DNA of 64,000 nucleotides, from the NCBI GenBank assembly GCA_963575745.1, contig CAUYUJ010000001.1:2542001-2606000 (forward strand), written 5' to 3'. The notes below the pieces were generated by a model, which worked only from the letters and a program-made list of their open reading frames with translations, was not told the DNA's origin and did no database searches. How positions within the stretch are numbered: position 1 is the first letter of the stretch; each line of letters opens with the position of its first letter. The stretch is from Prorocentrum cordatum. Taxonomy: Eukaryota. Positions 1,204-23,724 of the stretch are shown here, one piece after another. Position numbers and translations under genes: made by a program.

Positions 1204-1689
1204 CAAAAGGGCATCCAACCCCGCGCAGCTCCTCCCGTTGTCGCTCCGCCGCCGCCAGCCGCTCGGAGAGGTCCTGGCGCGGGGGCGGCCACGAGGACAC
1301 GCCCGTGCCCCAACCCGCCTCTCGCTCGGGCGCGCGCTGACATTCGGCGGCGCGCCCAGGGGGGAGGGGAAAAGGTGGCGGGTCTCCTCCTGGCCATCGC
1401 TCGGACGTCCATTCCCTGTGTTTTTTTCGGTTTCGTGCGTGGCTTCTTCGCCAAATGATCACGGATGCTCCTCGATGGTTCTCGCCGAAGGAAAAATGCA
1501 CACGTCCGAGCGATGCCGAGCCTCGGAAGGCTCAGAGGGCACCCGGGCATCCCGAGTAGCCATCTGCGCGATCTTCGAGGCACCGACGCCTGCGGAAGAG
1601 GTCTGCCCCACCTCACTGCCGCCCTCGGCGCGCCGCCGAGCCTCCCTCTCGGGCACGCGCTGACGTGCATCACGGATGCGCGGATCTGG

Positions 1690-1896
1690 TGTCAAGGGGC
1701 TCGGGGGGCTCGAAGTGTAAAGGAGTAAGTGGGGAGGGCGAGCGTACATTTTAGTGCTTACGCCAGAATCCTCAGCGACTCCAGGGCGAGTCGCACCCTA
1801 AGCCAAAAAGGCTGTGCACTACTGCAGAACACAAAGAGCGGGAAGAGGGAGGGAGACCAGGAACCCGGGGCCAGGGCGAGCCGGGTTACGATGACA
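1690..1896 (-). repeat. 3' LTR (207 bp)
   Basis: Runs TGTCAAGGGG...TTACGATGACA; differs from 10926-11136 by 4 transitions and one 4-bp indel. Confidence 0.96.
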
Positions 1897-4800
1897 GTGC
1901 ACCCAACTTCGGTGGGTTCTGCAGGGGGAAACCCCCCGCGGCACCCACCCTGGCCTCGCAGGACAGGTACATGGGGGCGTCCGGCCCGGCGCCCCGCGCC
2001 TCCAGCCGCCGGTCGCCGGCACTGGCGGGGATCTGGCGGGCGACTCGCCCCGCCTCGGGCTCCTCGCGACCTCCGCTCCTCCGGCTCCTCTCTGCCTCCT
2101 GTGGTACCTCCTCCTCATCCTCAACCTCCTCGGCCTCCGCCTCCTCCTTCCTCCTAGAGCTGTACTCCTCCTCGCCTCCCCGGGGCTTATCCTCCTCGAC
2201 CTCGCCCCTCCTCCTCGCCTCTTCGATCAAGGCTTTCCGGCTAGCCCCGCGAGACCGGGACTTGAGGGACATATTCAACGCTCGCTCGTCGAGATGCCCC
2301 CCTTCGTCGACGAGACGCATCGATCCTCGACAAAGTAAGTCGTGCAGGGCCAGGTTGCTTTTTGACGGATCGGCATGTGTCAACGGATCAGCAGGCATGC
2401 GTCCGCGGGGGAGCCAACGGATCTGCGAGCCAGTCGAGCTCAACGAGTCTCTGACAACAGCAAGTTCGATCGCGTTACGTCGATCGGACCGGGACCCAGC
2501 AGCGTTTTTGCTCAACGTGTCGAACACCGATTTGGCATCCACCACGGCCAGGGACGCGGCTCGATCACTCAACTCGCAAGTCGAGGACATCACGACCGAG
2601 AACGGAGAGGCTCCAATATTCCAAGACGGCTTCTGGACATCTCCGAAAACCGCATCACGCCAAATAACCTGCAAGTACTGAGCCTCGGCCACAGCACCGC
2701 TCAAGGCGAGAGTCTCTGCAGCGACGGTGGAGCTGATCACCCGCTTCAGTCGCTGCGAGCGCCACGAGAGCAGTGACGCGCGAGCTCGGCGGTTCGCCCG
2801 GATCGAGGCGTCCGCAGCCATAACCAACCAAGCACCCTGAGATCCTCCGCGGCTCGCGGAGCCCGGCCCGGAGGCGTCGGACGCCGCGACGAACGCGAGC
2901 GAAAGCGGGTCGAGCCCCCACACGGTCAACCTCTGAGAGGCCGTGGCCTTCAAAAACTTGCAAACCTTGATGAGCGTGAGAGCGTGGGAAACGAGAGGGG
3001 TCGGCATGGCCCCCGCGAGAATCGAAGCCGATCCCGCCACGTCTGGACGCGACTCCCTGGCCACCCACTGTACCTGGGCCACCACTGCCCGATACGACTT
3101 GACCTCAGTAGGCGCGAGGGGGGAATCAGGATCACAGCGACGAGAGCGATCGAGAGGCATAACCGTAAGTTGCTCCCGTATATATTTCTCCTGATCAATG
3201 GTTATCCGATCCCTAAACTGGCGCAGGTGCCGACCGGCAAACTCCGAATCGGACTGGCGCCACTTGCCAAACCGGAACCTAGACGTCGCTCTCTCCTTGA
3301 ACCGACCCACATACTCCTGGCGGCCGGTCACAATGAGGTCGTCGACCTCAATAAGCACCAGGCCCTCAAGGGCCCCCATCCGGTCCCGTTTGAGCCAGAG
3401 GCACGGTTCAAGCATGGACTTCGTGAAGCCCTCCGCCGCGAGCCAATCAGTCAGCGTCCGATGCCACAGAAGTGGAGCATCGTTGAGACCATATACGGGC
3501 GCAACCAACTCGATCAACTGATCTGGGCCAATCGGCAGACCCGAGCACGGCTCAACAAAAATCTTTCCACGGGGGCGCTCTAAACGCTGGCTCTGGCAAA
3601 ACGCGTTCTTCGCGTCAGCGATGGTAAGGGTCCATCCGAATGACGCGGCAATCTGCAGGCAGGTAAGAACGCTCTCTGACTGAGGTGTCGGGGCGTAGAC
3701 CTCCAAAGTTTCAGAGTCGGGGTCCTGGTGCCCGTGGACGCACCAACGGGATTTGGGCTCGGGGCGAGAGCCTACCCCCTCAACCGGTTTCAGCCGTCTA
3801 ACCATGCGAGAAGATAAAATGCGGTCGGGAAGCCGCCTCCGAGCTGACACCGACTCCTCAGGCGAGAGCACGCGCACAGCTCCAGTGCCCAGCATCGCCG
3901 CCCATTCCTTAGCGTCTGACTCCGAAAATCGGGCGCGATCTTCCGGGGACAAGTCTTTAAGTCTCACCTCGGCCCCCCGTGGGTTGATCTTGGGCGGAGT
4001 CTTGTCAGACGCCGAGGTCGGGTACGACAGCTCGTCGAAGGGACCTAAGTCTCTCAAAAAGAAGCGAGCCAGATCGGGGGCCCCCCGCGCCGCGGACCAC
4101 TCGAGGAGCTCTTGGACCAGAAAGCTGTCCTGCTCCTCGTCAGGAGCGTCCCAGTCACAATCACTTCCGCTGGCCTCCAGGTCCTCTCCGCCGGCATCCG
4201 TACTTTCGCCGGCCTCCTCCGCCTTCCCGCCGAGCTCCGCCAGGAAGTCGCCGGCGCCAGGGCGGGGCCCAGGGGGCCTGCTCCTGCCCGAGGACCGCGC
4301 GGCGGGGGCCTCCGGGGACGCGCGAGCGTCAGACGAAGGGCGAGCCCGGGGGACAGAGATGTCCCGCCCGGACCCCAAAACTCGTGCTGAAGGCGGCCGC
4401 TCCCTCGCCATGGGAACGTCCAGCGCCGGGGCCTCCGGCGCCGGGCGAGGAAGCGGCTCGACGCTCACAGGGGCAGGACTGCTAGCGGCCCCCTCCGCTG
4501 AGGGGGAAGGCGCCGACCCAGGAGGGGCAGCGGCGGATTGACTTGGCGGGCCTTGGATGGCCGCCACTCGCTGCAGAACGGAAGGCCTGTCTGGATACTC
4601 CTCAATCGGGGTAAAACGCGGACGCTTATCCTGAGGCTCAGGGCCCGGGGAAAGCCGGACCTCGCCCCGGGTCTCCGGGAGGGCGTCCGATCCAGGTTCC
4701 GAGGCGACCGATCCGACCGCGGGGACGAGAGAATCCGCGGGGGCCGAGGGCACCCGAGTGCCCTGAGAAACCTGGCGAGAGGGGCCCTGGGAAATCGGCG

Positions 4801-7800
4801 GATCCGGGATCACCGGGACCTGCTGCCTCGCCGAGGGGTCCTCCGGGGGCGCCGCTTCGGGGGCATCGTTGGCCTCGGGAGGCGGGGGTCCTTCGGCGGT
4901 GACATCCACCGCGCCAGACCTCTTGCCTGGGGAACGGATGTCTTCGCGAAGGCGGTCGAAGGCAGCACTATCCAACAACTCGGCCCCCATCGACTCTGAC
5001 CGAGTCGCCAGGCGCACCTGCTCGGCAGTGCACTTCAACAACTTGGCCCTCATGGCCACCCAGACGGTTCCGCCACCCTTGCTTCCACCGGCTCCCGCGG
5101 ACTGGTAGATGACGACCCCGGGACCGGTCCACCTGTCACGCTGGAGGGAGTGGGATCGATTGGAGGCGGTGATCCTCCGAAACACGTAAACCCAATCCCC
5201 CGGCCTGAATTCTCGCTCCTGATGAGGGCGAGCACGAGACGCCTCAGCAAGCCTAGATCGCGCATCCAGACCGGCGAGCGCCTTCCGGGCCTCCTCACGG
5301 ATCCGATGCTGCCGCGCAAACTCGCCGGCGGCCGAGTCGAGGTCCACAGCGCGGGCCGAAACGTCATCCGAGCCGATCAAGTCGACTGGGTCGTCTGACA
5401 ACAAACTCCGAGGGATCCGAAGGTTTTGTCCGAAAACAAGCTGGGACGGGCTGAAACCGCCACGGTGAAAACCCCGATTTTTGCTGGCAACCACTTCGCA
5501 GAGAAGGAAATCCGTCTCCTCTCGGGTCTCGGGATTGATCGACTGGGCTGCTTTCGACAGGGCTTCCTTCACTAAGCCGCCGTGGCGCTCACATTTGCCA
5601 TTCTGATGCGGAGAGTTGGCCGGAATAACGTGCTGCATCACTCCGTGATGTTCACACCCCCTCGCGAAAATCCCCTCAAACTCCCCTCCCCCATCACGCG
5701 CGAGGACCTCCGGGACCCCGAATGGCCTCACCCACCATCTAAGAAACGCGGCCCAGACCGACTTGGCCGTGTCGTCAGACAGAAGAGCGCACTGCTGGAA
5801 CGAGGTTCCATGATCAATGATGTTCATGACGGGGGTGCTCTTTCCATCGATGTCGAGATAGAACAGGTCTATCGCGATAACCTTATTGAAAGCGTAAGTG
5901 TGGGGCAAGTGCGCTCTCCTACGCCAGCTGGCCTTGGTGTGCGAGGCACACTGATCGCACTTAAACTCATCCTTCACCCAGGTTAACACCTCCAAGCGGG
6001 CCCCTGCCACGCGCAGGGCACGAAGGAAATCTTCATTCGAGGGGTGTCCGAGATTCACGCGCAGGCGGGCCACCTCTTTCTGAAGGGCCAGATCCAGAGA
6101 GGCCGCTTTCACGGGGCCCTGGGGCCGGGGAAGGCCCTCGGCGGGACCCGAACGGCCCCTGGAGGCCTCGTCTTCCTCGGAGACCGCGGGATCGGCTTCC
6201 TCGACCGGAAACGACCACGACTCAGCCTCGGAGGCCTCGTCCTGCTCAAACAGGGTAGCGGGGCCCGCCTGTCGAACCTGGGAGCGCCGGCGGTGAAACG
6301 CCAGAGCCCCGTCTTCCACGCCGGAGGCTAAACTACTGATCAGCTCCCTCGGGAAGTTCTCCGCGGCGTGCGTCCTGGCGCCGCCGAGAAGGGGAACGCG
6401 GACATGCTTGTGACTGCAGCGTCGCTGGCAGTGTGCGAGGAGGGGGGAAGAGTTGGACATCGCCCTGGTGGGTTTCTTGGCCGGTCCGAGCTCGCCGGTC
6501 CACAACCCATGCATGCGCTGATCCAGCTTCGAGACCTGGACCTCCGGCCTCTCGCACAGCACTCGCGCGCACTCGAGATGCCAAGAGCTGGCCGTGTCGG
6601 GGTGCTCCAAGGCAAAGAAACGACCGTGGGTAATCTGATACTCCGCAACTCTCATGCACAACTGCATTGCGGCAAGTCCGAGCCGCTCCTCCTCCTCCTC
6701 CCGAATTGGGTCCATCCGCCCCCAGTTGGAGGCCCGGGGCGCGCTGAATGCCTTGCACATCGGAGTCATAAGGACGAAGAGCGGCTGATCCTCACGAAGC
6801 TGGCGCCGCAGGCGCGCCTCCCCCTCGGGAGAAAGGAGATCAGTACCCAGGACTAGATCCAGAGGCGCCGACACGCTATGCCCGCGGCGCTGCAACTCCG
6901 CTGAAACCTTAGACGAGCTGAACATCTCTAAAGCTAAGGCCCCCCCCCGCTGAGCCTCCCGCGCCTTCACCACCTTCCGGCGGGTCCTTCGGCCCGATCT
7001 GAGCCCCTCACCTCCTAAGGCGCGGGCCGCTGCCTCGCGCACTTGCCGGGGGGCCGACGGGGCCGCGGGGGCGACAGCTAAGCGACCATCTAAGGCTGCC
7101 GCTGTGAACCGGTCCTCCTCTATCATGGTCACCTCCTCCACCTCCCTCGATCTCCTCGCCTCTTCCTCTCCTCCTCCAGGCGGAGCCTTTTCGCACCAAA
7201 AAGTCACCTGAAGCACAGACTTCAAAGTCGAGCCGAGCGCCCGGCTGATCTCGGAGGCCCCCGAAGTGGCCCACAAGCCGGTGTAAAGCACGGAATCTCC
7301 GAGACCCGCGATCTCGAGCCATCTTGGGCCAGAGGGAAGAGACGAGTCCGGAGGCTCCTCACCGTTGGCAGCGAGCGCGAGGCCTACGAAAAAGGCGCTG
7401 CGCTCGGAAGGCGAGAGACGAACGGGGGTCCACTGCTGACTCTCGCAGACCCTCTGAGGACTGAGAAGGGTGCCCGAGCTTTCTCCCCAGAATCCGAGGA
7501 CCTCCCGAGACGATCGACGATGCCGAGAGCCCCTCCGGAATCGATTCAAATAAGTTCCCAGATCCTTGAGGAAGACGTCGCGGGGGTCGCAACAGGAGAA
7601 GGTTCTACCAGCCAGCTCAGCCTGCTTCTCAGGAAAGACGTCGCTTAGACGCCGGATGCGTTCGCCTCCTCGGCCACCGCGGGCAAGAAGCCGCCCGGAG
7701 ACCTGCCCGAGGAGATCGCCTGCATCATCGTCGCGATGCGAAGGAGGTCGTCGTTCTGGATCGTCGCAGGGCGGGTCGCCAGCTCGGTCATCGTCGTCTC

Positions 7801-10045
7801 TGCCCAGGCCCTCTGGTCGGCGATCATGTTGCGAAGGTTCATGAACGTCAGCTCGTTGTCGCGGCGCTGCGACTCCAACACGGTCGTCATATCGAAGAGC
7901 GCTCTCTGCATCTCCTGCACAGTCATCGGGCGAGTGCTCGACGATCCCGGCGTGGGCCCCGAGGTCTTCGGCGTCGCGCCAAGCTCCCGAGACGCCGGAG
8001 GGGGCTTCACCGGAATGTAGCCCTCGGCGCACTTGACCATCGGGATCGGGTGCTGGTCGAACTGGTCCTTCTCCTTCCGGCCAGGCGCCGGCGGCGGAAC
8101 CGGAAGGGGCAGCGCGGGCGACTCCTGCCAGGGGTCCGTCGCCTCGTCCCAGGCCCGCACCCTGGCCTTGCACTCGTCCTTGTACTTGGCCTTGATCTGC
8201 TTCTTCTTCTCGACCAGGGCCTTCTTCGCGCGGCGCGCCTCCTTTTCTTCGGTCGTGAACTTGGCGAAGTGGAGCTGCACCGAGCACACCGTGCACTTCG
8301 AGTAGGTGCCGTGCTGGTTCTCCCCGTGCCAGTGGGCGTGCGGCGGGTGTGGGCAGTCCTCTGGGTCCTCGCGCTCCTTGATCATGTTCGGCATAAGGGT
8401 CGAGGCCAAGACCGCCTGGGTGCACGCGTGCATGTGCCAGAAGATCCTGATCGTCATCCTGCGCCAGCGCTGCACGTTCGTCTTCAGACTCATGTGGCCC
8501 TCCACGAACCACTCCTGCTCCTGGTCGTCCAGCGCCTCGAGTTCCAGCATCGTTTGCAAGTCCTCGTCGGGCGCCTGCTGCTCCGGCAGCTCCTCCCAAT
8601 CGTCCATCTCGGTGTCCTTCGGGCCGTTCTCCAGGATACTCGAAGCGCGAGTCCTCATCGCGCTCAGGTCGAAGCGAACCCTCCGACTGGCCTGCACCCT
8701 CCTCGAAGGATGCGGGGACTTGCCACGCGACTCCTTCTTGCTGACGCCGGGCCGCCCACTGCCGGATGACATCGTGGGCGCTGCGGCCTCCTCCTGAGCT
8801 ACTCGCGGGGGCTCGCCTCTCCTCAGAAGTTTGAGCTGAGAACTCTGGAGTGGGGGGGTCGGGTCCACAACATCGCAACCCCCTCGGGCCCCCGCTCGAA
8901 GGAGAGGAGAGAAAAGGAGAGGGGCTGACGCTGCTGCTGACCGGCGCGGGCCGACTCTCACCGGCGGCCGATCCCTCCCCGCGGTCCTGGACCACGAACT
9001 GCTGGGCCGACATCCCCAGGGCGTCCTGGATCTCGCGGGCCAGCACGAACTGGGAGGCGGGGCGCTGCACCAGGTCGACCGAGCGGTGGCCGGACGGGTG
9101 CGAGACCAAGTCAAAAGCAATCGATCGGCCTCCCACCTTCACGCTCATCTGGTTCCGGGGGAGATCGATAACCGAGCCGAGGCAAGTGAGAAATTTGGCG
9201 GGCAGCAGTGGCGGACAAGATCCCTCTAGAATCAAAAACTCGACGATGCCGCAGCCCCCCAACGTCACAGGCGCCCAAGCCTTCCCGACCGGAACAGCTC
9301 GACCTCCGATCCCGGAGGCTGCGATGCCGATGACCGGCGTCCAGTCGAGGACGAGCTGGTAGCCCCGGAGCTTCAGAGCACCCTCCAGCTCCAGCACCTC
9401 GGCCCGCCCGATCAGAGCCTGCGCGGCCGCGGTGTCCACCAGCGCGTGCGTGCCGAGGCTCCTGAGGGTCGCGTCGGCGAACGTCGCGCGGACGAGGTCG
9501 ACCATCCCCGAGAAGCCGTCCACGTCCTCGTTCACGAAAAAGTAAGTGAAACCGGTCGGCGCCTTGGCGCCAGCAGCCTTCTCCTTGGCCAACCGATCCG
9601 CCTTGGACTGGAACGGGTTCGTGCAGCTCTCAGCCCAGTGGCCTCGCTGCCCGCAATTCGCGCAGCGCGACTTGCGGCGGAAATCCTTTTCCCCGATCTT
9701 CCGAAACCCTGGACGAGCTGGCCTCGAGGATTTACGGCGGTCGAAGAAGTCACGGTCCGTCTTCTTAGCCAACTTCAGTTTCCGAGATTCGGTCCAAGTT
9801 CGTCGACGCTCCTTACCGTATTTCTCCTCCACCACTTTAGCAAAAACTTCAGCGGCCTCATGTTCGTCCATATCCTGTTCTTCCACAGCCGTCAGGAAAG
9901 CCAAAGCCTCGTCCTCCGGTAGCTCTATCTCGTCGTCGTCGCCCTCATAGTAGGTTTCCGGTGGCGGCGGACACTCCGACGATGAGGATCCTTCGTGCAA
10001 GAAGCTCTTGGGGACGGGTACCGGATTGGCTGGAAGGACCCGCTT
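1886..10045 (-). CDS. pol: Gag-Pol polyprotein body: zinc knuckle, aspartic protease, insert, DNMT-like domain, integrase, RT, RNase H
   Basis: Open for >2700 codons. CANCGQRGHWAESC knuckle (9623-9664); LVDTAA protease (D at 9434-9436); GHP...CDQC and IDLF/DGGGEF/GKCER DDE integrase (~6080-5430); RWCVHGHQDPD, ADAKNAF, PVYGLNDAP, EVDD RT (~3760-3000); SDAS/AAET/VDAKS/ADPLT RNase H (~2900-2350). The stop lies inside the 3' LTR. In frame with the gag ORF across one TAA. Confidence 0.95.
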   Translation of the reverse strand, partial: KRVLPANPVPVPKSFLHEGSSSSECPPPPETYYEGDDDEIELPEDEALAFLTAVEEQDMDEHEAAEVFAKVVEEKYGKERRRTWTESRKLKLAKKTDRDFFDRRKSSRPARPGFRKIGEKDFRRKSRCANCGQRGHWAESCTNPFQSKADRLAKEKAAGAKAPTGFTYFFVNEDVDGFSGMVDLVRATFADATLRSLGTHALVDTAAAQALIGRAEVLELEGALKLRGYQLVLDWTPVIGIAASGIGGRAVPVGKAWAPVTLGGCGIVEFLILEGSCPPLLPAKFLTCLGSVIDLPRNQMSVKVGGRSIAFDLVSHPSGHRSVDLVQRPASQFVLAREIQDALGMSAQQFVVQDRGEGSAAGESRPAPVSSSVSPSPFLSSPSSGGPRGLRCCGPDPPTPEFSAQTSEERRAPASSSGGGRSAHDVIRQWAARRQQEGVAWQVPASFEEGAGQSEGSLRPERDEDSRFEYPGERPEGHRDGRLGGAAGAAGARRGLANDAGTRGAGRPGAGVVRGGPHESEDERAALAQDDDQDLLAHARVHPGGLGLDPYAEHDQGARGPRGLPTPAARPLARGEPARHLLEVHGVLGAAPLRQVHDRRKGGAPREEGPGREEEADQGQVQGRVQGQGAGLGRGDGPLAGVARAAPSGSAAGAWPEGEGPVRPAPDPDGQVRRGLHSGEAPSGVSGAWRDAEDLGAHAGIVEHSPDDCAGDAESALRYDDRVGVAAPRQRADVHEPSQHDRRPEGLGRDDDDRAGDPPCDDPERRPPSHRDDDAGDLLGQVSGRLLARGGRGGERIRRLSDVFPEKQAELAGRTFSCCDPRDVFLKDLGTYLNRFRRGSRHRRSSREVLGFWGESSGTLLSPQRVCESQQWTPVRLSPSERSAFFVGLALAANGEEPPDSSLPSGPRWLEIAGLGDSVLYTGLWATSGASEISRALGSTLKSVLQVTFWCEKAPPGGGEEEARRSREVEEVTMIEEDRFTAAALDGRLAVAPAAPSAPRQVREAAARALGGEGLRSGRRTRRKVVKAREAQRGGALALEMFSSSKVSAELQRRGHSVSAPLDLVLGTDLLSPEGEARLRRQLREDQPLFVLMTPMCKAFSAPRASNWGRMDPIREEEEERLGLAAMQLCMRVAEYQITHGRFFALEHPDTASSWHLECARVLCERPEVQVSKLDQRMHGLWTGELGPAKKPTRAMSNSSPLLAHCQRRCSHKHVRVPLLGGARTHAAENFPRELISSLASGVEDGALAFHRRRSQVRQAGPATLFEQDEASEAESWSFPVEEADPAVSEEDEASRGRSGPAEGLPRPQGPVKAASLDLALQKEVARLRVNLGHPSNEDFLRALRVAGARLEVLTWVKDEFKCDQCASHTKASWRRRAHLPHTYAFNKVIAIDLFYLDIDGKSTPVMNIIDHGTSFQQCALLSDDTAKSVWAAFLRWWVRPFGVPEVLARDGGGEFEGIFARGCEHHGVMQHVIPANSPHQNGKCERHGGLVKEALSKAAQSINPETREETDFLLCEVVASKNRGFHRGGFSPSQLVFGQNLRIPRSLLSDDPVDLIGSDDVSARAVDLDSAAGEFARQHRIREEARKALAGLDARSRLAEASRARPHQEREFRPGDWVYVFRRITASNRSHSLQRDRWTGPGVVIYQSAGAGGSKGGGTVWVAMRAKLLKCTAEQVRLATRSESMGAELLDSAAFDRLREDIRSPGKRSGAVDVTAEGPPPPEANDAPEAAPPEDPSARQQVPVIPDPPISQGPSRQVSQGTRVPSAPADSLVPAVGSVASEPGSDALPETRGEVRLSPGPEPQDKRPRFTPIEEYPDRPSVLQRVAAIQGPPSQSAAAPPGSAPSPSAEGAASSPAPVSVEPLPRPAPEAPALDVPMARERPPSARVLGSGRDISVPRARPSSDARASPEAPAARSSGRSRPPGPRPGAGDFLAELGGKAEEAGESTDAGGEDLEASGSDCDWDAPDEEQDSFLVQELLEWSAARGAPDLARFFLRDLGPFDELSYPTSASDKTPPKINPRGAEVRLKDLSPEDRARFSESDAKEWAAMLGTGAVRVLSPEESVSARRRLPDRILSSRMVRRLKPVEGVGSRPEPKSRWCVHGHQDPDSETLEVYAPTPQSESVLTCLQIAASFGWTLTIADAKNAFCQSQRLERPRGKIFVEPCSGLPIGPDQLIELVAPVYGLNDAPLLWHRTLTDWLAAEGFTKSMLEPCLWLKRDRMGALEGLVLIEVDDLIVTGRQEYVGRFKERATSRFRFGKWRQSDSEFAGRHLRQFRDRITIDQEKYIREQLTVMPLDRSRRCDPDSPLAPTEVKSYRAVVAQVQWVARESRPDVAGSASILAGAMPTPLVSHALTLIKVCKFLKATASQRLTVWGLDPLSLAFVAASDASGPGSASRGGSQGAWLVMAADASIRANRRARASLLSWRSQRLKRVISSTVAAETLALSGAVAEAQYLQVIWRDAVFGDVQKPSWNIGASPFSVVMSSTCELSDRAASLAVVDAKSVFDTLSKNAAGSRSDRRNAIELAVVRDSLSSTGSQIRWLPRGRMPADPLTHADPSKSNLALHDLLCRGSMRLVDEGGHLDERALNMSLKSRSRGASRKALIEEARRRGEVEEDKPRGGEEEYSSRRKEEAEAEEVEDEEEVPQEAERSRRSGGREEPEAGRVARQIPASAGDRRLEARGAGPDAPMYLSCEARVGAAGGFPLQNPPKLGALSS
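6320..6940 (-). other. C5-cytosine DNA methyltransferase-like domain within the polyprotein
   Basis: Ordered DNMT-like motifs: LEMFS (degenerate motif I), PLDLVLGTDLL (II/III), MTPMCKAFS (motif IV, Cys at 6755-6757), FALEHP (motif VI), KKPTRAMSN (VIII-like), AAENFPREL (X-like). Boundaries approximate. Confidence 0.72.
7645..8772 (-). CDS. Overprinted ~375-aa protein (CxH...CxxC zinc finger plus coiled coils) nested in an alternative frame of pol
   Basis: ATG at 8772, TAA at 7645, frame offset from pol. Protein-like composition and GC3-rich codons (CPHPPHAHWHGENQHGTYSKCTVC; KEARRAKKALVEKKKQIKAKYK), while the pol frame here reads as R/G/A/P-rich filler. Confidence 0.75.
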   Translation of the reverse strand: MSSGSGRPGVSKKESRGKSPHPSRRVQASRRVRFDLSAMRTRASSILENGPKDTEMDDWEELPEQQAPDEDLQTMLELEALDDQEQEWFVEGHMSLKTNVQRWRRMTIRIFWHMHACTQAVLASTLMPNMIKEREDPEDCPHPPHAHWHGENQHGTYSKCTVCSVQLHFAKFTTEEKEARRAKKALVEKKKQIKAKYKDECKARVRAWDEATDPWQESPALPLPVPPPAPGRKEKDQFDQHPIPMVKCAEGYIPVKPPPASRELGATPKTSGPTPGSSSTRPMTVQEMQRALFDMTTVLESQRRDNELTFMNLRNMIADQRAWAETTMTELATRPATIQNDDLLRIATMMQAISSGRSPGGFLPAVAEEANASGV

Positions 10046-10807
10046 TTATTGCACGTCAAGAAGTAGAAGGGCGGACCGAATGGATGCTGCATCCTTTTGA
10101 CCACCTGCCAACGTCCGCATGTTGATCTTGTTTTGTGCCGATAGATTCGCTCCTTCTTCCAGGTAACGTGCCAGTACATTGTCTGGGAGCACGAGCCCCC
10201 GAGCAGCCGCATCTGCAAGTTGGGCATTGCGTCGAAGTGCGAAATCGGTGATGCTTTCATTCCGCTGGATCATGTAATCGAACAACGCGTGACTATGACT
10301 GAGACGATCTCTGTCGCCGGGCCGCTCTCCGTTGAGAATGCTCAAGTGGTCCAAGTATGTGTCCACGCCGTTTTCGAGCTCCAACGCCTGTCGCACTGGC
10401 TTGAATTTCAGTTGGAGCTCCACGGGCAAAGACTCCACCAGCCTCGACGCCTGGGTCTCCGGCTGGTGGCCGGTCCTCGTGGACCACGCCCGCACGTTGC
10501 TACTGTACAGCTCTAAGTGTTCTAGTCCGAGCCAATTTGGAGGAGGCCCGAAGTCACGACTACGCTCCGGGCGGCCCCAGGTCGCGCCCTTCCAATCCTG
10601 GGCGTCGTGCTCATCCTGGTCGCCGCCGCCGTCGCTACCTGCAGCTGCCCACGGTGTCCACGAGTACCACCAGCCAGAGCCCCAGCCCCAGCCGTTCCAC
10701 GCACTCTGACCCCAGCCAAGGTCTGACCCCGACGCTTGAATGCCGACGGAGCGCGCGCCATCACTGCCTATCTCGTCGAAGCCGTGGTCGCCACCATCCG
10801 CCGGCAT
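10046..10807 (-). CDS. gag: Gag (capsid) N-terminal region
   Basis: ATG at 10807 just after the PBS; W/G-rich N-terminus followed by PPPNW...YSSNVRAW...RNESITDF capsid-like motifs; ends in TAA in frame with pol. Confidence 0.82.
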   Translation of the reverse strand: MPADGGDHGFDEIGSDGARSVGIQASGSDLGWGQSAWNGWGWGSGWWYSWTPWAAAGSDGGGDQDEHDAQDWKGATWGRPERSRDFGPPPNWLGLEHLELYSSNVRAWSTRTGHQPETQASRLVESLPVELQLKFKPVRQALELENGVDTYLDHLSILNGERPGDRDRLSHSHALFDYMIQRNESITDFALRRNAQLADAAARGLVLPDNVLARYLEEGANLSAQNKINMRTLAGGQKDAASIRSALLLLDVQ

Positions 10808-10906
10808 GCCGGCGGCAAGAGGGCTCGAGCACTCCCTTCTCGCGCCGAGGGTCCAGCACCTGCCACTTCTCGGCACGTCCGCTCCTCCCACGATCTGCCT
10901 CACAAC

Positions 10907-10924
10907 CACGTGCTCCGCTTACCA
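10907..10924 (-). promoter_or_regulatory. Primer-binding site (probably tRNA-iMet)
   Basis: TGGTAAGCGGAGCACGTG begins 1 nt inside the 5' LTR; TGG pairs with tRNA CCA and the rest resembles iMet-type PBSs with a bulge. The tRNA identity is inferred. Confidence 0.75.
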
Positions 10925-10925
10925 C

Positions 10926-11136
10926 TGTCAAGGGGCTCGGGGGGCTCGAAGTGTAAAGGAGTAAGTGGGGAGGGCGAGCGTACATTTTAGTGCTTATGCC
11001 AGAATCCTCAGCGACTCCAGGGCGAGTCGCACCCTAAGCCAAAAAAACTGTGCACTAATTACTGCAGAACACAAAGAGCGGGAAGAGGGAGGGAGACCAG
11101 GAACCCGGGACCAGGGCGAGCCGGGTTACGATGACA
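10926..11136 (-). repeat. 5' LTR (211 bp)
   Basis: Direct repeat of 1690-1896 and adjacent to the PBS. Confidence 0.96.
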
Positions 11137-11699
11137 CTGGCGCGCGAGCAGACTCGCGGATCGGGGAGCGTACCCCCCGAGACATGGTACAGTTGGCGAC
11201 GGAGCTGGTCCGCACGCCTTGATCCAAATCTGCGCGCTTCCTCGACCCCCTCCCGTCGGACTTCCGCTGCGGCTCGCCTTCCCCTGGTCCCCCTCCCCCG
11301 AGGGCTGGGTGAGGGGCCCAGAGGAGGCTGATGCAGGACAGGCCTCCCAGACATGCGACGTCCTGATTTTTTCAGGACGGGGTCCGTGGAAGTAAGTCCC
11401 GACCAGTTCCCCGGGACCGGTTTTTCATCCTGCGTCGTTTTTTGAGGGCCCCGAGGCCCGGCGAGGGCCTCCTGAGGGCGAAATTGGCCAAAAACTTGCC
11501 GTCCTGACTTTTTACGACGCGATCATGTCTGGAATACCATCCCACACTGCTCGACAGTGAGAACATGCGGCAACACGACACATCGCTGTAAGAAATCTGG
11601 GGGCGCATCCTTCGTCGACTGCGAGTTTCGCACGGTGCTGCAGGGCTCTGCGGGCTGATCGGGAGATAAAACATTGAGCCGCCACCAGCTGGCAGGCCA

Positions 11700-13420
11700 A
11701 TCCCACCAGCCCTTCGAACGACAGGTGGTCTAAGGAGGGTCTCTTTCCTCTGCCACAGTTCCACTCCCCTCCCTGAGGTTTTTTTGGGGAGGGATCGCGA
11801 TGTGTCAGAGGCTCCTTTTTCGGCCAAGGGGGGGGCCAGTTTTTGCCACCCCTCACGAGGATCGTGGCCCAAGAGGGGGGGACCTAAATCGAGTACCCCC
11901 CCTCTTTTGACCGACCGCCTCCAAGGTGGCCTCCAGGGCTCCCCAGAGGCCCCCAAGAGGGTTCCACTAGCACCCCAAGAGGCCCCCGAGGGGCCTCCAA
12001 GAGGCCCCCGAATGGCCCCCAAGCGGCCTCAGAGAGCCCAAGATGACCTCCAAGATTGCTCAAGATAGTCCAAACTCAACAAGGCCCCAAAATGCCTGGA
12101 GAGGCCCCAGGACCGCTCCAAGACAGCTCGAAATGGCCACGGACCCCCCGAAGGATGCCGCCGAGATGCCCACATCCTTCACAAACGTACCGAACATTAA
12201 TGAGTTTGGCATTCTCGCCTTTTTGCTTTCGATGACCTTCCGGGGCCTTCATGTGGCTCCAAGATGGCCCAAGAGGGCCCCAAGAGAGGTCCAAGAGAGC
12301 CCCAAAACGGCCCCAAGAGCGCCCAAGAGCGCCCCGAGAACGCTCCAAGATGGGCCCAAGAGGCAATCCCTCCAACCCTTTGGGCGACACGTGGTCTAAG
12401 GAGGGTCTCTTTCCTCTTCCACGACCCCTCTTCCCTTCTGGGAGGGGAGTCCTCCACCTCCCCTCCGTGGGTTTTTTTGAAAGGGGTCGCGAGGTGTGGT
12501 AAGCTTCTTTTTCGGCCATTGGGAGGGCAATTTTTTGCCACCCTCACGAGGATCGTGGCCCCCGAGAGGAAAAACCTAAATCGAGTACCCTCCCCTCTTT
12601 TGACCGACCGCCTCCAAGATGGCCCCAAGAGGCCCCCCAGGGCTCCCCAGGGGCCCCCAAGAGGGTTCCATTAGCTCCCCAAGGATGCCCCAAGAGGGCT
12701 CCAAGAGGCCCCCGAGAGGCCTCCAAGAGGCCCCCGAATGGCCCCCAACCTTCGTCAGAGAGCCCAGCGACGACCTCCAAGATGGCTCAAGATAGCCCAA
12801 GCTGGCTCAATATGGCCCCAAAATGCCCCAAGACCGTTCCAAGACGGGTCGAGATGGCCACGGAGCCCCCCCCAGGATGCCGCCGAAATGCCCAAATCCT
12901 TCACAAACGTACCGACAACGAATGAATTCCACCAGCCTTTGGGCGACCGGTGGTCTAACGAGGGTCTCTTTCCTTTTCCACGACCCCTCTTCCCTTCGAA
13001 GGGGGGACCCTCTCCCTTCCCTCCCTGAATTTTTTTTTGGGGAGGGGGTCGCGATGAGTCGGAATTTTTCGTTCGGCTCCTGGACAAGGGGTCATTTTGC
13101 TACTCCTCACGAGGATCGTGGCCTCCGATGGGGGGGGCGCAAATCTAGTACCCCTCCTCTTTTGACCGACCGCATCCAATATGGCCCCACGAGGCTCTCC
13201 AGGGCTCCCAGGAAGCTCCCAAGAGGTCCCAAGGAACGCCCCAAGAAGCCCCAAGAGGCCTCCAAGGAGGCCTCCAAGGAGGCCCCGAACGGCATCAGAG
13301 ACCCCAGGATGACCTCCAAGATAGCTCAGATAGTCCAAGCTGGCTCAAGATGGCTCCCAATATGCCCCAAGCGGCCCCTGAGACCACTCCACGACGGTTC
13401 GACATGGCCACGAAGCCTCA
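11700..13420. repeat. Three degenerate ~600-bp tandem units containing CCCAAG-type simple repeats
   Basis: Blocks GAGGGTCTCTTTCCT, CTCACGAGGATCGTGGCC and CTTTTGACCGACCGC recur in units starting near 11735, 12400 and 12960. Confidence 0.75.
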
Positions 13421-20829: not shown

Positions 20830-21044
20830 GTTATAGTAGCAGAAAATACGAATAGAAGTAATACTAATCGTCGTCGTAGTCGTTGTCGTCGTCGTAAAAA
20901 TAGTAGTGTCAATATTGTTATTGTTATTGTTGTTAATATTATTAGTAGTAGAAGTAATCAGGGTCGTAGTAATAGTCGTAATAGTAGTAGTAGTAGTAGT
21001 AGTAGTCGTTGTAGAAGTAGTAGTAGTAGTAGTAGTCGTATTAA

Positions 21045-21085
<41 letters not shown>

Positions 21086-21341
21086 ATAGTCGTGGTAGTT
21101 GCGATGATAGTAGTGGTAGTCGTCGTCGTAGTCGAAATCATAGTGATAGTTGTAAGGCTAATACTAGAAGTAATAGTATTAGTAACTGTAGCAACAATAA
21201 AGGTCGCCGTAGTAGTCGGAGAAGGAGTAGTCGCAGTAGTCGCCATCGTCGAAAATAGTAGTTGTAGTAATAGTAATGGTAGTAGTCGTAGCAACAATAC
21301 GAGTAGTAGTCGTACTAGTAGTAGTAGTAGTAGTAGTAGTC

Positions 21342-21378
<37 letters not shown>

Positions 21379-21910
21379 CAGTGGTAGTAGCAGTAGTAGT
21401 AGTAGTAGTAGTAGTAATAGTAATAGTATTAATAAAGGTAGTTGTAATGGTGGTACTAAGTACTCCTAGTAGTAGTAGTATTAATAATAATCTTAATAGT
21501 AGTAGCAGCCGTCGTTGTAGTGGGCGTAGTAATATCGTAGTCGTACCAGTCGTAGTTGCAATAGCAGGAATAGTGGTAGTAGTCGTAGTAAAAAAAGTAG
21601 CAGTAATACTTGTAGTAACTATCGTAGTCGTGACAGTAGTAGTCGTGAACCTAAAAATAGTGATAGTAGTAGTAATAAAAAGAGTAATATTAATAGTGGT
21701 CGTAGTTTTAGTAGTCGTAGTAGTAGCAGTAGTTGTAGTAGTAGCAAGTGTTGTACTAGCAGTAGTAGCAACAGTAGTAGTGGTAGGCGTAGTAGTGACA
21801 GCAGTCATATGAGTAGTAGCAATCATCGTAGTAATCGTGGGGGAAGTAGTAGTAGTTGTAGCTGGAGTAGTTGTAGTAGTAGTAGTAGTAGTAGTAGTAG
21901 CAGTAGTAGC

Positions 21911-21961
<51 letters not shown>

Positions 21962-21977
21962 CGTAGTAGTCGTAGTC

Positions 21978-22026
<49 letters not shown>

Positions 22027-22315
22027 GTAGTAGTAGCGGTAGTAGTAGTCGTTGTCGTAGTAGTCGTAGGAATGGTCGTCGTGGTTGCAAGAGTAGTAGT
22101 GGTAGAAATAGCAATAATCGTATTATTAGCAGTGGTAGTCGCCGTAATCATAGTATTAGTAGGCATAGTAGTGTTTAGTGGTAATTGCCGTAATCGTGAT
22201 GATGGTAGTAGTAGTACGAATCCTACAAGCCGGAGAAATAGAAATACTAAAGAGAATAATAGTCGCCGTAGAAGTCGTAGTACCAGAAACAATACCCGTG
22301 CTCGTAATAGTCGTA

Positions 22316-22346
<31 letters not shown>

Positions 22347-23028
22347 GCAATAGTTATCGTGGTCGTACGTACGTAATACGTAGTACCGAATACGCAGTAC
22401 GTTTCAGCCCTTCGCTATCTAGTAATAGGTGGGTAGTAGTAGTAGTGGAGTACTCTTAGTAGTCGTAGTATGAATGGAAAAGAAGAAAAAGTAGTAGTTG
22501 TTATGGTAGAAGGTGTGCTGCTGGTAGTAGGTAGTAGTAGTACTAATAAAAATGGTGGCATCAGTAGTAATAATAGCAGTCGTACTAGTAGGAGTAGCAG
22601 TAGTGGTAGTAGTAGCAGCACTAGTGGTAGGAGTGGTAGTAGTAGCAGTAGTAGTGGTAGTAGAAGTAGTAGTGGTAGTAATGATCGGAGTAGTCGTATT
22701 ATTAACACTGATGCCCGTAATAGTAGCAGTAGTAACAGTAGGAGGAGGAGAAATAGTAGTAGTCATGATAGGTATAAAAAGTAAACTGAGAATATTAAAA
22801 GTAGTAACCGTCTCAAACTATGTTGTAATAACATCAGACATGCTACGAATCGCAGAAGTGGTAGTCGTAGCAGTAGTGGTAGAAATCGTAATAGTAGTAG
22901 TAGTAGTAGTATTTGAAATACTCGTACTAGAAGTAATTGTAACAGTAGACGTAATAGCAGTAGTAATAATAATAGTTTAGTGGTCGAAGCAATCGTAATA
23001 GCTGTAGAAGTCGTAGTAGTAGTAGTAA

Positions 23029-23092
<64 letters not shown>

Positions 23093-23170
23093 CGTCGTAG
23101 TTGTAATAGTCGTCGTCGTCGTCGTAGTAGTAGTAGTAGTAGTGCTAGTAGTAGTAATAGTAGTAGTAGC

Positions 23171-23203
<33 letters not shown>

Positions 23204-23366
23204 CGTCGTCGCAAAAGGAGAGCTAAAAGTAGTAATGGTCGCAGTCGTAGAACTAGAACTGAAAATCGTAGCGGTCGTCGTCGTAGTAGTAGTAGTAGTA
23301 GTAGTCGTAGCAGTAGTAGTCGTAGTAGTGAAAATAATCGTGGTAGTGCTAGTAGTAGTAGTAGTA

Positions 23367-23413
<47 letters not shown>

Positions 23414-23442
23414 AGTAGTAGTGGTAGTAGTAGTAGTAGTAA

Positions 23443-23477
<35 letters not shown>

Positions 23478-23545
23478 ATAGTAGTAGTAGTAGTAGTCGT
23501 AGTAGTAGTAGTAGTAGTAGTAGTCGTAGTCGTAGTCGTAGTCGT

Positions 23546-23600
<55 letters not shown>

Positions 23601-23681: not shown

Positions 23682-23724
<43 letters not shown>

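What the first reader, a model, noticed from the sequence alone, without database searches (positions are those of the whole stretch)
6320..6940. Copia-order LTR retrotransposon with a cytosine-methyltransferase-like domain fused ahead of integrase
Seen: an in-frame ~200-aa segment with DNMT-like motifs in the right order (EMFS, PMC, EHP, KKPT, AAENFP) directly N-terminal to the integrase zinc finger. Established: canonical copia polyproteins lack such a domain; to my recollection DNMT capture has been described in dinoflagellate LINE and DIRS elements and an algal gypsy element, so a copia carrier may be a separate acquisition. Inference: it would be packaged with Pol and could pre-methylate the cDNA, as camouflage or self-regulation. 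Motif I lacks the FxGxG glycines, so it may be a divergent or binding-only fold.
Basis: partly seen in the sequence, partly recalled or inferred. Interest (0 to 1): 0.88.

Follow-up and report, generated by a model that had tools for sequence, protein, structure and literature searches.

The report
Copia retrotransposon with cryptic DNMT-like domain
A nearly intact copia-type jumping gene carries, just ahead of its integrase, a strongly diverged relative of the enzymes that methylate DNA cytosines, and the same hidden domain sits in thousands of related elements from dinoflagellates, a group whose copia elements were reported to lack such a domain.

Summary
Window 1690-11136 (minus strand) is a 9.4-kb Ty1/copia-order LTR retrotransposon. 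It has ~98% identical 207/211-nt LTRs, a CTGG target duplication, and the order gag-CCHC, protease, extra domain, integrase, RVT_2 reverse transcriptase, RNase H.

The extra domain (window 6275-6943) has no Pfam or PDB sequence hit of its own. It belongs to a family of 2627 clusters, and in relatives it always lies before the integrase.

An AlphaFold model (pLDDT 88) is closest to C5 cytosine methyltransferases. The top 11 of 48,161 chains are all C5-MTases (Z 11.4-9.2), and every Foldseek hit at E<=1e-3 is a DNMT. Ten of 41 family members match the phage DNA-methyltransferase family phrog_757, which genuine C5-MTases also match.

- Kept: the Pro-Cys loop (Cys 95/95), the Glu of motif VI (94/95) and an Asp after strand 2 (95/95).
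- Lost or changed: the glycine SAM loop is replaced by F/Y-S-P-P-R, there is no target-recognition domain, and a Cys/His cluster is added.

Catalysis is therefore open. I favour cytosine methylation of the cDNA (about 0.4); a binding-only module is the main rival.

This copy looks damaged: TAA in gag, DTA in protease, and Cys182Arg in the domain. I rate it a new variant of a known kind.

The parts
10926..11136 (-). 5' LTR (in element orientation), 211 nt, TGT...ACA ends
   Evidence: Direct repeat with 1690-1896. Ends read.
1690..1896 (-). 3' LTR, 207 nt. The long frame's stop codon (1886-1888) lies just inside it.
   Evidence: 4 substitutions and one 4-nt indel against the other LTR.
1686..1689 (.). 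Target-site duplication CTGG. The second copy is at 11137-11140.
   Evidence: Read directly. A 4-nt match has a chance of about 1 in 256.
10910..10924 (-). Primer-binding-site-like stretch starting TGG, one base after the 5' LTR
   Evidence: Sequence read. Assignment is inferred and was not compared with tRNAs.
10049..10918 (-). Gag-like frame (290 codons), ended by an in-frame TAA at 10046-10048 that lies before the CCHC knuckle
   Evidence: Relatives' proteins align across the stop in the same frame. No Pfam hit.
9623..9664 (-). CCHC zinc knuckle of Gag/NC
   Evidence: Pfam zf-CCHC, E 0.0012. Coordinates.
8960..9445 (-). Aspartic protease region. The active-site motif reads D-T-A-A (9407-9442), where the two relatives inspected read D-T-G-A and D-I-G-A.
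   Evidence: tblastn of relatives. Motif compared with P0004 and P0005.
7645..8772 (-). Other-frame ORF of 375 codons (P0218) with its own ATG and stop, and GC3 of 0.88-0.95. The main frame here is its stop-poor shadow.
   Evidence: Sister-copy contigs bridge both frame junctions without frame-changing gaps.
6275..6943 (-). DNMT-like domain, residues 40-262 of P0002. It comprises motif I position (LEMFSSSK), Asp68, the Pro-Met-Cys loop, Glu-His-Pro, D-Q-R (family D-x-C), K-K-P-T, C-x3-H-x-R (family C-x3-H-x-H), and a motif X-like helix.
5576..6049 (-). Integrase: N-terminal zinc-finger region (5948-6049) and D, D, E core motifs (5855-5875, 5678-5704, 5576-5602)
   Evidence: for coordinates. 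Weak Pfam rve_3 hit. Relatives carry Pfam rve at the same place.
3170..3754 (-). Copia-type reverse transcriptase
   Evidence: Pfam RVT_2, E 2.2e-17.
1886..2890 (-). RNase H region and C-terminal tail of Pol
   Evidence: Homology to relatives' C-terminal parts. 13 of 14 listed differences from a sister copy at 2339-2504 fall on third codon positions.

Best explanation
The segment is a real, conserved domain of the Pol polyprotein of a large lineage of Ty1/copia-order LTR retrotransposons. It descends from a C5 cytosine methyltransferase catalytic domain of the short type without a target-recognition domain, as seen in phages and giant viruses. I put this identity at about 0.9.

The domain is translated with Pol, between protease and integrase, so it should end up in the particle next to integrase or still joined to it (inferred).

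The nucleophile loop (Pro-x-Cys), the motif VI glutamate (Glu-His/Gln-Pro) and the acid after strand 2 are almost invariant across the family. I therefore think it most likely still performs Cys-dependent chemistry on a flipped-out cytosine of the double-stranded cDNA or the integration site. The most probable reaction is SAM-dependent C5 methylation, which would give a new copy the CG methylation of its host genome. This mechanism is inferred and I put it at about 0.4.

A family-specific cluster of residues (Cys182, Cys215, His219, His221) takes the place of the target-recognition domain. It may bind zinc (inferred).

The copy in this window is probably no longer functional. It has TAA inside gag, D-T-A in the protease motif, Cys182Arg, and His221Arg (the latter shared with two of the three close fragments that cover the position).
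For: Family and position:
- 2627 representative proteins at E<=1e-3.
- In 11 of 11 long relatives with a Pfam rve hit, the domain lies upstream of the integrase (domain positions).
- In 76 of 76 session proteins where both pieces are detected, the order is domain then integrase. This set includes near-identical cluster members.
- Seven proteins show the full order gag-PR-domain-IN-RT-RH or PR-domain-IN-RT-RH.

Fold:
- AlphaFold2 model with pLDDT 88.1 and pTM 0.82.
- VIA-align against 48,161 chains: the top 11 rows are all C5-MTases. DNMT3A and DNMT3B score Z 11.4 (rmsd 4.1-4.2, 194-196 aligned) and M.HhaI Z 10.6. The alignments start at the enzymes' N-termini.
- Foldseek on PDB: 42 hits at E<=1e-3, and every listed one is a DNMT.
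- BFVD: the best hits are 210-225-aa viral proteins. The named ones include the Lactococcus phage P087 putative DNA methylase and the Tetraselmis virus 1 putative cytosine MTase. Best E 3.3e-7, target-normalised TM 0.69.

Sequence:
- 10 of 41 members hit phrog_757 'DNA methyltransferase' at E<=0.01 (best 6.3e-6). Matches cover up to profile positions 42-225 of 247.
- 5 of 7 genuine C5-MTases hit the same profile at positions 11-134.
- The family profile against PDB has DNMT2 as its best hit, on the PPCQxF motif, at E 0.04.
- P0017 hits PF00145 at E 4.6e-4 over motifs II-IV.

Conservation:
- Cys102 95/95, Asp68 95/95, Gln142 95/95, Pro154 95/95, Glu152 94/95.

Context:
- Passages of PMC5890265 propose cDNA methylation for the DIRS-borne Dnmt3 and describe widespread CG methylation in Symbiodinium.
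Against: - No glycine-rich SAM loop: the motif I position reads F/Y-S-P-P-R in the family and F-S-S-S-K here.
- None of the 14 phrog_757 matches at E<=0.1 reaches profile positions below 42. That is where genuine C5-MTases align their motif I.
- The window's own domain hits no Pfam, PHROG, NCBIfam or PDB sequence.
- PF00145 is reached by only 1 of 90 relatives at E<=0.05, and below the curated cut-off (20.1 against 22 bits).
- The family HMM against 8 real C5-MTases scores no better than shuffled controls: 2.1 bits against 3.3 bits for the best of 168 controls.
- hhalign gives only 11% probability, P 0.0028.
- Generic Rossmann folds follow closely in Z: FtsJ 9.1 and short-chain dehydrogenases up to 9.0.
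- No target-recognition domain is present.
- No activity, SAM binding or zinc site was or could be tested here. Model coordinates could not be inspected, so residue-level placement in the active site is inferred from motif order and secondary structure.
Confidence: 0.4

Rival explanations
1. Binding-only pseudo-enzyme. The DNMT-derived fold has lost cofactor use. It serves as a DNA-binding or base-flipping module that tethers or aims the neighbouring integrase, or recruits host factors.
For: - The SAM loop is replaced by S-P-P-R, and the N-terminal part is unrecognisable to methyltransferase profiles.
- The domain is always placed directly before integrase.
- There is no target-recognition domain, and an added Cys/His cluster could be a DNA-contacting zinc site.
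Against: Strict conservation of the catalytic-type Cys (95/95) and Glu (94/95), and of Asp68 at the motif II position (95/95), is more than a pure binding role would usually demand.
Confidence: 0.3
2. An enzyme with other C5/C6 pyrimidine chemistry that needs no canonical SAM pocket. It would use the Cys nucleophile to remove, exchange or add another group on cytosine or uracil derivatives, or act on RNA. One candidate target is the 5-hydroxymethyluracil that marks silenced transposons in dinoflagellates.
For: - The catalytic Cys and Glu are kept while the SAM loop is not.
- Passages of PMC11572971 report 5hmU as a transposon-silencing mark in a dinoflagellate.
- Recalled and not checked here: C5-MTases can catalyse SAM-independent reactions at C5.
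Against: There is no direct evidence of any kind. Asp68 at the ribose-binding position is invariant, which fits a nucleotide cofactor. Named hosts are few.
Confidence: 0.12
3. A Rossmann-like domain not derived from a DNA methyltransferase. The PxC and ExP motifs would be convergent, and the function unrelated to base modification.
For: - Z for FtsJ and short-chain dehydrogenases (8-9) is only about 2 units below the best DNMT.
- Direct profile-sequence and profile-profile tests against 8 C5-MTases are not significant or weak.
Against: - The top 11 of 48,161 chains and all Foldseek hits at E<=1e-3 are C5-MTases.
- There are collinear matches of up to 184 profile positions to phrog_757, which true C5-MTases also match.
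- Motif order and spacing agree with PF00145 positions 26-76.
Confidence: 0.08

Closest known systems
Retrotransposon-borne DNMTs: SymbioDIRS-Dnmt3, SymbioLINE-DNMT, Klebsormidium Gypsy-Dnmt3, and EpiLTRs of Cymbomonas and Euglena. Sources are passages of PMC5890265 and of bioRxiv 10.64898/2026.05.21.726589. PMC12344493 also mentions DNMT3 in 'LTR Copia and DIRS' structures.
   Same: A cytosine-methyltransferase-type domain encoded inside a retrotransposon coding region. In the DIRS case it lies inside Pol, and methylation of the cDNA was proposed there.
   Different: - Those domains are recognisable DNMTs by Pfam-type searches and keep the key residues. This one is missed by PF00145, lacks the glycine loop and the target-recognition domain, and carries a Cys/His cluster.
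- It sits in Ty1/copia-order elements between protease and integrase.
- PMC5890265 states that the Symbiodinium Copia superfamily 'lacks any DNMT domain'.
Short viral C5-MTase-like proteins of about 210-250 aa: phrog_757 and the BFVD models of Lactococcus phage P087 'putative DNA methylase' and Tetraselmis virus 1 'putative cytosine DNA methyltransferase'
   Same: Same size and no large target-recognition domain. These are the best structural matches (E 3.3e-7 to 8.4e-5). They give the only significant sequence matches (10 of 41 members, best E 6.3e-6).
   Different: - They are free-standing viral proteins, not part of a retroelement polyprotein.
- Genuine C5-MTases align to the motif I part of phrog_757, whereas the copia family does not.
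- Whether these short viral proteins are themselves active was not examined.
DNMT3A/DNMT3B catalytic domains
   Same: Highest Z (11.4) over 194-196 aligned residues, with the same strand order implied by collinear alignment from the N-terminus. The small target-recognition region is recalled, not checked.
   Different: About 10% identity. DNMT3 has FxGxG, ENV and RxR motifs and binds SAM. The copia domain has S-P-P-R, E-H/Q-P and K-x-T.
Canonical Ty1/copia elements (Pseudoviridae), including the Symbiodinium SmTCL elements of PMC5776459
   Same: LTRs, gag with CCHC, the order protease, integrase, RVT_2 reverse transcriptase and RNase H, and a short target duplication.
   Different: - There is an extra ~220-aa domain and ~700 further residues between protease and integrase.
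- The passages of PMC5776459 that I read list only RT, integrase, RNase H and LTRs.

Membership tests
C5 cytosine methyltransferase superfamily (PF00145 type) | Overall fold of the catalytic domain | tested here: met
   - The top 11 of 48,161 chains are all C5-MTases, Z 11.4-9.2.
- All listed Foldseek PDB hits at E<=1e-3 are DNMTs.
- The margin over generic Rossmann folds is only about 2 Z units.
C5 cytosine methyltransferase superfamily (PF00145 type) | Significant sequence match to the family model (Pfam gathering score) | tested here: not met
   - P0002 has no Pfam hit.
- 1 of 90 relatives reaches PF00145 at E 4.6e-4, with 20.1 bits below the 22-bit cut-off.
- Indirect link only: 10 of 41 members match phrog_757, which 5 of 7 true C5-MTases also match.
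C5 cytosine methyltransferase superfamily (PF00145 type) | Motif IV Pro-Cys nucleophile loop after strand 4 | tested here: met
   - P-M-C in the window.
- Pro100 92/95 and Cys102 95/95 in relatives.
- Aligned to PPCQxF of DNMT2 and of Dcm.
C5 cytosine methyltransferase superfamily (PF00145 type) | Motif VI Glu (E-N-V) at the end of strand 5 | tested here: met
   - E-H-P in the window.
- Glu152 94/95 and Pro154 95/95 in relatives.
- It lines up with ENV in the extended hhalign alignment, at low confidence.
- Strand 148-154 is present in the model.
C5 cytosine methyltransferase superfamily (PF00145 type) | Motif I F-x-G-x-G SAM-binding loop | tested here: not met
   - F-S-S-S-K in the window, F/Y-S-P-P-R in the family.
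- Gly at these positions in at most 2 of 95 relatives.
- No phrog_757 match extends below profile position 42.
C5 cytosine methyltransferase superfamily (PF00145 type) | Acidic residue after strand 2 (motif II) that holds the SAM ribose | tested here: inconclusive
   - Asp68 is invariant, 95/95, and sits after the second strand of the model.
- The PF00145 match of P0017 covers this stretch collinearly.
- Contact with a cofactor could not be examined.
C5 cytosine methyltransferase superfamily (PF00145 type) | Motif VIII R-x-R and a target-recognition domain | tested here: not met
   - K-x-T (Lys196 93/95, Thr198 92/95) stands where a hairpin follows strand 6.
- Only about 30 residues lie between it and the last helix. 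They hold Cys215, His219 and His221.
- The equivalence to motif VIII is inferred.
C5 cytosine methyltransferase superfamily (PF00145 type) | SAM-dependent methyl transfer to cytosine C5 | not testable with these tools
   Needs biochemistry.
Ty1/copia-order LTR retrotransposon | RVT_2-type reverse transcriptase with integrase upstream of it | tested here: met
   RVT_2 at E 2.2e-17, window 3170-3754. Integrase motifs at 5576-6049.
Ty1/copia-order LTR retrotransposon | Two LTRs with TG..CA ends and a target-site duplication | tested here: met
   LTRs of 207 and 211 nt, TGT..ACA ends, CTGG on both flanks. A 4-nt duplication is shorter than the 5 nt I recall as usual for copia.
Ty1/copia-order LTR retrotransposon | Intact coding capacity (autonomous copy) | tested here: not met
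   - In-frame TAA inside gag at 10046-10048.
- D-T-A in place of D-T-G in the protease.
- About 1.1 kb where the long frame is only the shadow of another frame.

The most novel reading that the evidence does not exclude
The domain is an active nucleic-acid-modifying enzyme that works without the canonical glycine SAM loop. It would be carried by what may be the most abundant retrotransposon lineage of dinoflagellates. It would either methylate the element's own cDNA, feeding or exploiting the near-complete CG methylation of these genomes, or use its Cys nucleophile for SAM-independent C5 chemistry, for example on the 5-hydroxymethyluracil silencing mark. Either way the element would write or erase its own epigenetic state at the moment of integration.
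Probability: 0.12. Interest if true: 0.9.

Novelty: new variant of a known kind. Interest (0 to 1): 0.62.

Why it matters
DNMT capture by retrotransposons is known for LINE, DIRS and gypsy-type elements. The reference study states that the most abundant Symbiodinium retrotransposons, the Copia superfamily, lack any DNMT domain (passages of PMC5890265).

Here a copia lineage with thousands of diverged members carries a DNMT-derived fold that profile searches miss, with the catalytic Cys and Glu held nearly invariant.

- If active, a large share of dinoflagellate retrotransposition would come with self-encoded base modification next to integrase. That bears on how their unusual methylomes arise and on how transposons evade or use silencing.
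- If inactive, it is a clear case of a methyltransferase fold recruited as an integrase accessory.

Either outcome is directly testable with one recombinant domain. The case also shows that Pfam-based surveys undercount epigenetic domains in transposons.

My seven full-text searches found no description of such a domain in copia elements. Repbase or Dfam notes and supplementary files were not searchable here and may hold one.

Tried and rejected
- Whole-genome search for sister copies: no genome is held for this window. No second copy lies in the window (tblastn).
- Word-indexed homologue searches were poor: 1 hit, 4 hits, and 2 hits with the alignment. The exhaustive search was needed.
- Direct sequence tests against genuine C5-MTases were weak or negative.
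  - phmmer of P0002 against PDB gave 0 hits.
  - hhalign of the family against 8 MTases gave 11% probability, P 0.0028, confined to motif IV. The forced extension has no confidence outside it.
  - The family HMM against the same 8 was not above 168 shuffled or reversed controls.
- NCBIfam gave only an IS481 transposase hit, to the integrase part of one member.
- ESM Atlas: the 30 nearest clusters are unnamed. The nearest cluster with a Pfam family is PF00145 at 0.84, which is only a lead.
- Cysteine-protease readings (papain-like or Ulp1-like order of Cys, His, Asp, Gln) were considered from the conserved residues and dropped. His153 is only 63/95 conserved, the residue order does not fit, and an aspartic protease is already present upstream.
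- Expression: no RNA holder was listed among the sequencing runs.
- Runs X3 and X4 held next to nothing beyond a simple repeat at 2107-2148.
- dN/dS of the domain between sister copies could not be computed. The laid-contig table shows only the best-supported differences, and none inside 6275-6943.
Phage records were used instead.
Full report
**What is there**

On the minus strand a single stop-free frame runs from 10045 to 1886 (2719 codons). A further 290 codons precede it in the same frame (10918-10049), separated by one TAA at 10046-10048.

Two direct repeats of 207 and 211 nt bound the element, at 1690-1896 and 10926-11136. They differ by four substitutions and one 4-nt indel, begin TGT and end ACA, and are flanked on both outer sides by CTGG. 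A TGG-led stretch follows the 5' LTR by one base. I take it as a primer-binding site by position only.

Pfam finds a copia-type reverse transcriptase (RVT_2, E 2.2e-17, aa 2098-2292), a CCHC knuckle (aa 127-143) and a weak integrase-core hit. The integrase zinc-finger region and D, D, E motifs lie upstream of the RT.

**The observation**

The domain as I delimit it is window 6275-6943 (residues 40-262 of the 287-aa segment P0002). About 90 mostly acidic residues separate it from the integrase zinc finger, so 'directly N-terminal' is slightly too strong.

**It is a family, not an accident**

P0002 alone has no Pfam family and no PDB sequence relative even at E 10. The exhaustive phmmer search over 1.84 billion representative proteins gave 2627 hits at E<=1e-3, 723 at E<=1e-10 and 2 at E<=1e-30.

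In their alignment 24 positions are conserved at 90% or more:
- Invariant in 95/95: Asp68, Cys102, Gln142, Pro154.
- 94/95: Glu152, His221, Pro93.
- 93/95: Glu45, Cys182, Lys196, Cys215, His219.

The family signature reads:
- E-(V/L)-(F/Y)-S-P-P-R
- D-L-x-x-G-W-D
- P-x-C-x-x-F-S
- Q-x3-G-x2-F-x2-E-(H/Q)-P-x2-A-x-S-W
- D-x-C-x2-G
- K-x-T-x4-N
- C-x3-H-x-H
- A-x2-Y-P

**Where the domain sits in relatives**

Among 31 long relatives scanned with Pfam, 11 have an rve integrase core, 6 have RVT_2, several have CCHC knuckles, and 13 have no Pfam hit at all. In all 11 with rve the domain ends upstream of it, about 80-150 residues upstream in 10 of them and 346 in one (domain positions).

All 76 proteins in which both the domain and the integrase are detected have the order domain then integrase. 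Seven show the whole series with gag and/or protease upstream and RT and RNase H downstream. This set contains near-identical cluster members, so the counts are not independent events.

Three proteins by blastp, and four more by Pfam, have the domain followed within about 100 residues by RVT_2 with no room for an integrase. I did not follow up this second layout.

The only organism names attached to cluster members are Cladocopium goreaui and Durusdinium trenchii (Symbiodiniaceae). A EukProt set labelled Pyramimonas sp. CCMP1952 holds the closest fragments, up to 93% identity. Twenty clusters were looked up and most members are unnamed metagenome or assembly proteins. The true host range is therefore not established, and I did not try to identify the window's source.

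**Fold**

An AlphaFold2 model of P0002, built with 40 relatives as the alignment, is confident (mean pLDDT 88.1, pTM 0.82; pLDDT above 90 over residues 41-260).

- Exhaustive structural alignment to 48,161 representative PDB chains puts C5 cytosine methyltransferases in the first 11 places:
  - DNMT3A and DNMT3B at Z 11.4 (rmsd 4.2 and 4.1, 196 and 194 aligned)
  - M.HhaI at Z 10.6
  - a prophage MTase at Z 10.3
  - DIM2, MET1, DNMT1, M.MpeI, DNMT5 and a C5-carboxymethyltransferase, down to Z 9.2
- The first unrelated fold is FtsJ at Z 9.1 with 141 residues aligned, followed by short-chain dehydrogenases at 9.0 and below. The preference for C5-MTases is consistent, but the margin over generic Rossmann folds is about two Z units.
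- The alignments start at the N-termini of the enzymes (M.HhaI residue 10, Dnmt2 residue 6). This places the first strand and LEMFSSSK at the motif I position.
- Foldseek against PDB gives 42 hits at E<=1e-3, every listed one a DNMT (best 5.9e-5, TM 0.43-0.45).
- Against predicted viral structures the best matches are proteins of the same small size. These include:
  - an unnamed 210-aa protein (E 3.3e-7, target-normalised TM 0.69, rmsd 4.4)
  - the 212-aa 'putative DNA methylase' of Lactococcus phage P087
  - the 218-aa 'putative cytosine DNA methyltransferase' of Tetraselmis virus 1

**Sequence link to methyltransferases**

The link is real but indirect.

- Ten of the 41 sequences of alignment A2 match PHROG family 757 ('DNA methyltransferase', 247 positions) at E<=0.01, and 14 at E<=0.1 (best 6.3e-6). 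The matches are collinear and run up to profile positions 42-225.
- Single members also touch phrog_363, phrog_2882 and phrog_116.
- As a control I took E. coli Dcm and six of the seven phage DNA-cytosine methyltransferases fetched from public records. All 7 match phrog_116 and phrog_363, and 5 of 7 also match phrog_757 (E 1.3e-7 to 4.4e-4) over profile positions 11-134. So phrog_757 bridges the copia family and genuine C5-MTases.
- The family profile's best PDB hit is DNMT2 on the PPCQxF motif, E 0.04.
- One relative (P0017) reaches PF00145 at E 4.6e-4 over profile positions 26-76, below the gathering score.

Against this:
- hhalign of the family against Dcm plus the seven phage MTases (eight in all) gives only 11% probability (P 0.0028) on motif IV.
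- The family HMM against the same eight does not beat shuffled controls.
- The window's own copy hits no family library.

**What is kept and what is lost**

Kept:
- the Pro-Cys loop after the fourth strand
- the Glu at the end of the fifth strand (E-H/Q-P in place of E-N-V)
- an invariant Asp after the second strand, at the motif II position
- a final helix with A-x2-Y-P, which resembles motif X (the last equivalence is inferred)

Lost or changed:
- The glycine loop of motif I is replaced. No phrog_757 match reaches the part of the profile where real C5-MTases align motif I.
- There is no target-recognition domain. Only about 30 residues lie between the K-x-T hairpin and the last helix.
- That stretch, together with Cys182, carries a conserved Cys/Cys/His/His set that could be a zinc site (inferred).

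**How it most likely works**

- Shown: the domain is an integral, conserved part of Pol in this lineage and has a DNMT-type fold with the two catalytic-type residues nearly invariant.
- Inferred: it is packaged with Pol, lies next to or on the integrase, and meets the double-stranded cDNA.

I think the most likely activity is Cys-dependent attack on a flipped cytosine with methyl transfer from SAM. That would give a new copy the CG methylation that passages of PMC5890265 describe as nearly genome-wide in Symbiodinium, and which those authors proposed for the DIRS-borne Dnmt3. I put this at about 0.4.

The remodelled SAM end makes a binding-only role (0.3) or another kind of C5 chemistry (0.12) serious rivals. 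A non-DNMT origin of the fold remains possible (0.08).

**State of this copy**

The window's domain keeps 21 of the 24 conserved positions. It has Lys for Arg51, Arg for Cys182 and Arg for His221.
- A 93%-identical fragment has Cys at 182, so that change is private to this copy or to very close kin.
- Arg221 is shared by two of the three close fragments that cover the position.

Elsewhere in the element:
- The TAA at 10046-10048 lies inside gag, ahead of the CCHC knuckle, and relatives align across it.
- The protease motif reads D-T-A-A, where two relatives read D-T-G-A and D-I-G-A.

The copy is young by its LTRs but probably not autonomous.

Contigs of one public run (coded X1) cover the whole element at roughly 90-96% identity, so sister copies exist elsewhere. 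In the RNase H part, 13 of 14 listed differences fall on third codon positions.

**An unexplained feature inside the element**

Between about 8800 and 7640 the third-position GC content is 0.88-0.95 in another frame and only 0.38-0.58 in the long frame. That other frame is an ORF of 375 codons with its own ATG (8772) and stop (7645).

Its C-x-H-P...G-x-N-Q-H-G...C-x2-C motif recurs in three relatives upstream of their DNMT-like domain (E 4e-6, 0.001 and 0.007). The long frame stays open there because its stops would need T at the other frame's third positions.

Sister-copy contigs bridge both junctions with no frame-changing gaps: 7348-8082 has none, and 8132-9115 has one 3-nt gap. The layout is therefore shared, not a private pair of frameshifts.

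It follows that about 375 residues of the '2719-aa polyprotein' are probably not the ancestral protein sequence. The DNMT-like domain itself lies downstream, where the long frame is the real one.

**Literature**

- PMC5890265 (passages) reports DNMTs in Symbiodinium LINE and DIRS elements and a Klebsormidium gypsy element. It states that the Copia superfamily, the most abundant there, lacks any DNMT domain.
- PMC5776459 (passages) lists RT, integrase, RNase H and LTRs for Symbiodinium copia-like elements.
- PMC12344493 (passages) mentions DNMT3 members in 'LTR Copia and DIRS' structures, citing the 2018 work.
- The preprint 10.64898/2026.05.21.726589 (passages) lists the TE-borne DNMTs known to its authors and adds EpiLTRs. 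None is a copia-order element with a hidden DNMT fold.
- PMC9998398, PMC9651163, PMC11453091 and PMC11572971 (passages) add nothing on such a domain.
- Seven searches found no description of it. Supplements and TE databases were not checked.

**Verdict**

The identity reading, a DNMT-like domain in a copia element ahead of integrase, is supported by fold, by indirect sequence links and by conservation. The functional reading is open. I rate it a new variant of a known kind, with interest of about 0.6.

Noticed in passing
window 7645-8772, minus strand, frame shifted by one base from the long frame: A nested 375-codon ORF (P0218) with its own ATG and stop and GC3 of 0.88-0.95, far above the rest of the element (0.65-0.8). 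The long polyprotein frame is its stop-poor shadow here. It carries a C-x-H-P...G-x-N-Q-H-G...C-x2-C motif that three relatives have upstream of their DNMT-like domain. Sister-copy contigs keep the same frame layout. It is unknown whether this is a separate gene, a recoding site or a tolerated double frameshift.
   Followed up: partly
window 10046-10048: An in-frame TAA inside gag, between the capsid-like part and the CCHC knuckle. Relatives' proteins align across it. It is probably a nonsense mutation rather than a gag/pol boundary.
   Followed up: partly
window 9407-9442: The protease active-site motif reads D-T-A-A, where the two relatives inspected read D-T-G-A and D-I-G-A. This may be an inactivating change.
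   Followed up: no
proteins P0081, P0105, P0132 and P0065, P0082, P0091, P0113: A second architecture in relatives. The DNMT-like domain is followed within about 100 residues by the RVT_2 reverse transcriptase, with no integrase between them.
   Followed up: no
proteins P0003, P0009, P0016: The closest relatives of the window's domain (56-93% identity) are transcript-derived fragments filed in EukProt under a green-alga label (Pyramimonas sp. CCMP1952). All other named family members are Symbiodiniaceae. Either the family's host range is wider than dinoflagellates or that data set is mixed.
   Followed up: no
window 20943-25543 and 50079-51404: Very long trinucleotide arrays: TAG about 1519 copies over 4.6 kb, and TAC about 435 copies. 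They match the low-GC, strongly skewed stretches in the composition profile.
   Followed up: no
window 29817-31389: An 89-nt satellite with 17.7 copies at 96% identity.
   Followed up: no
window 11698-13305: Three diverged tandem units of about 560-690 nt directly beside the element's 5' LTR (families D3, D5-D7, D9 and D10).
   Followed up: no
window 2107-2148: A short purine/pyrimidine-rich stretch inside the Pol tail (Glu-rich coding). It attracts thousands-fold depth from all four laid runs, so it is a common simple repeat and not evidence of element copy number.
   Followed up: no
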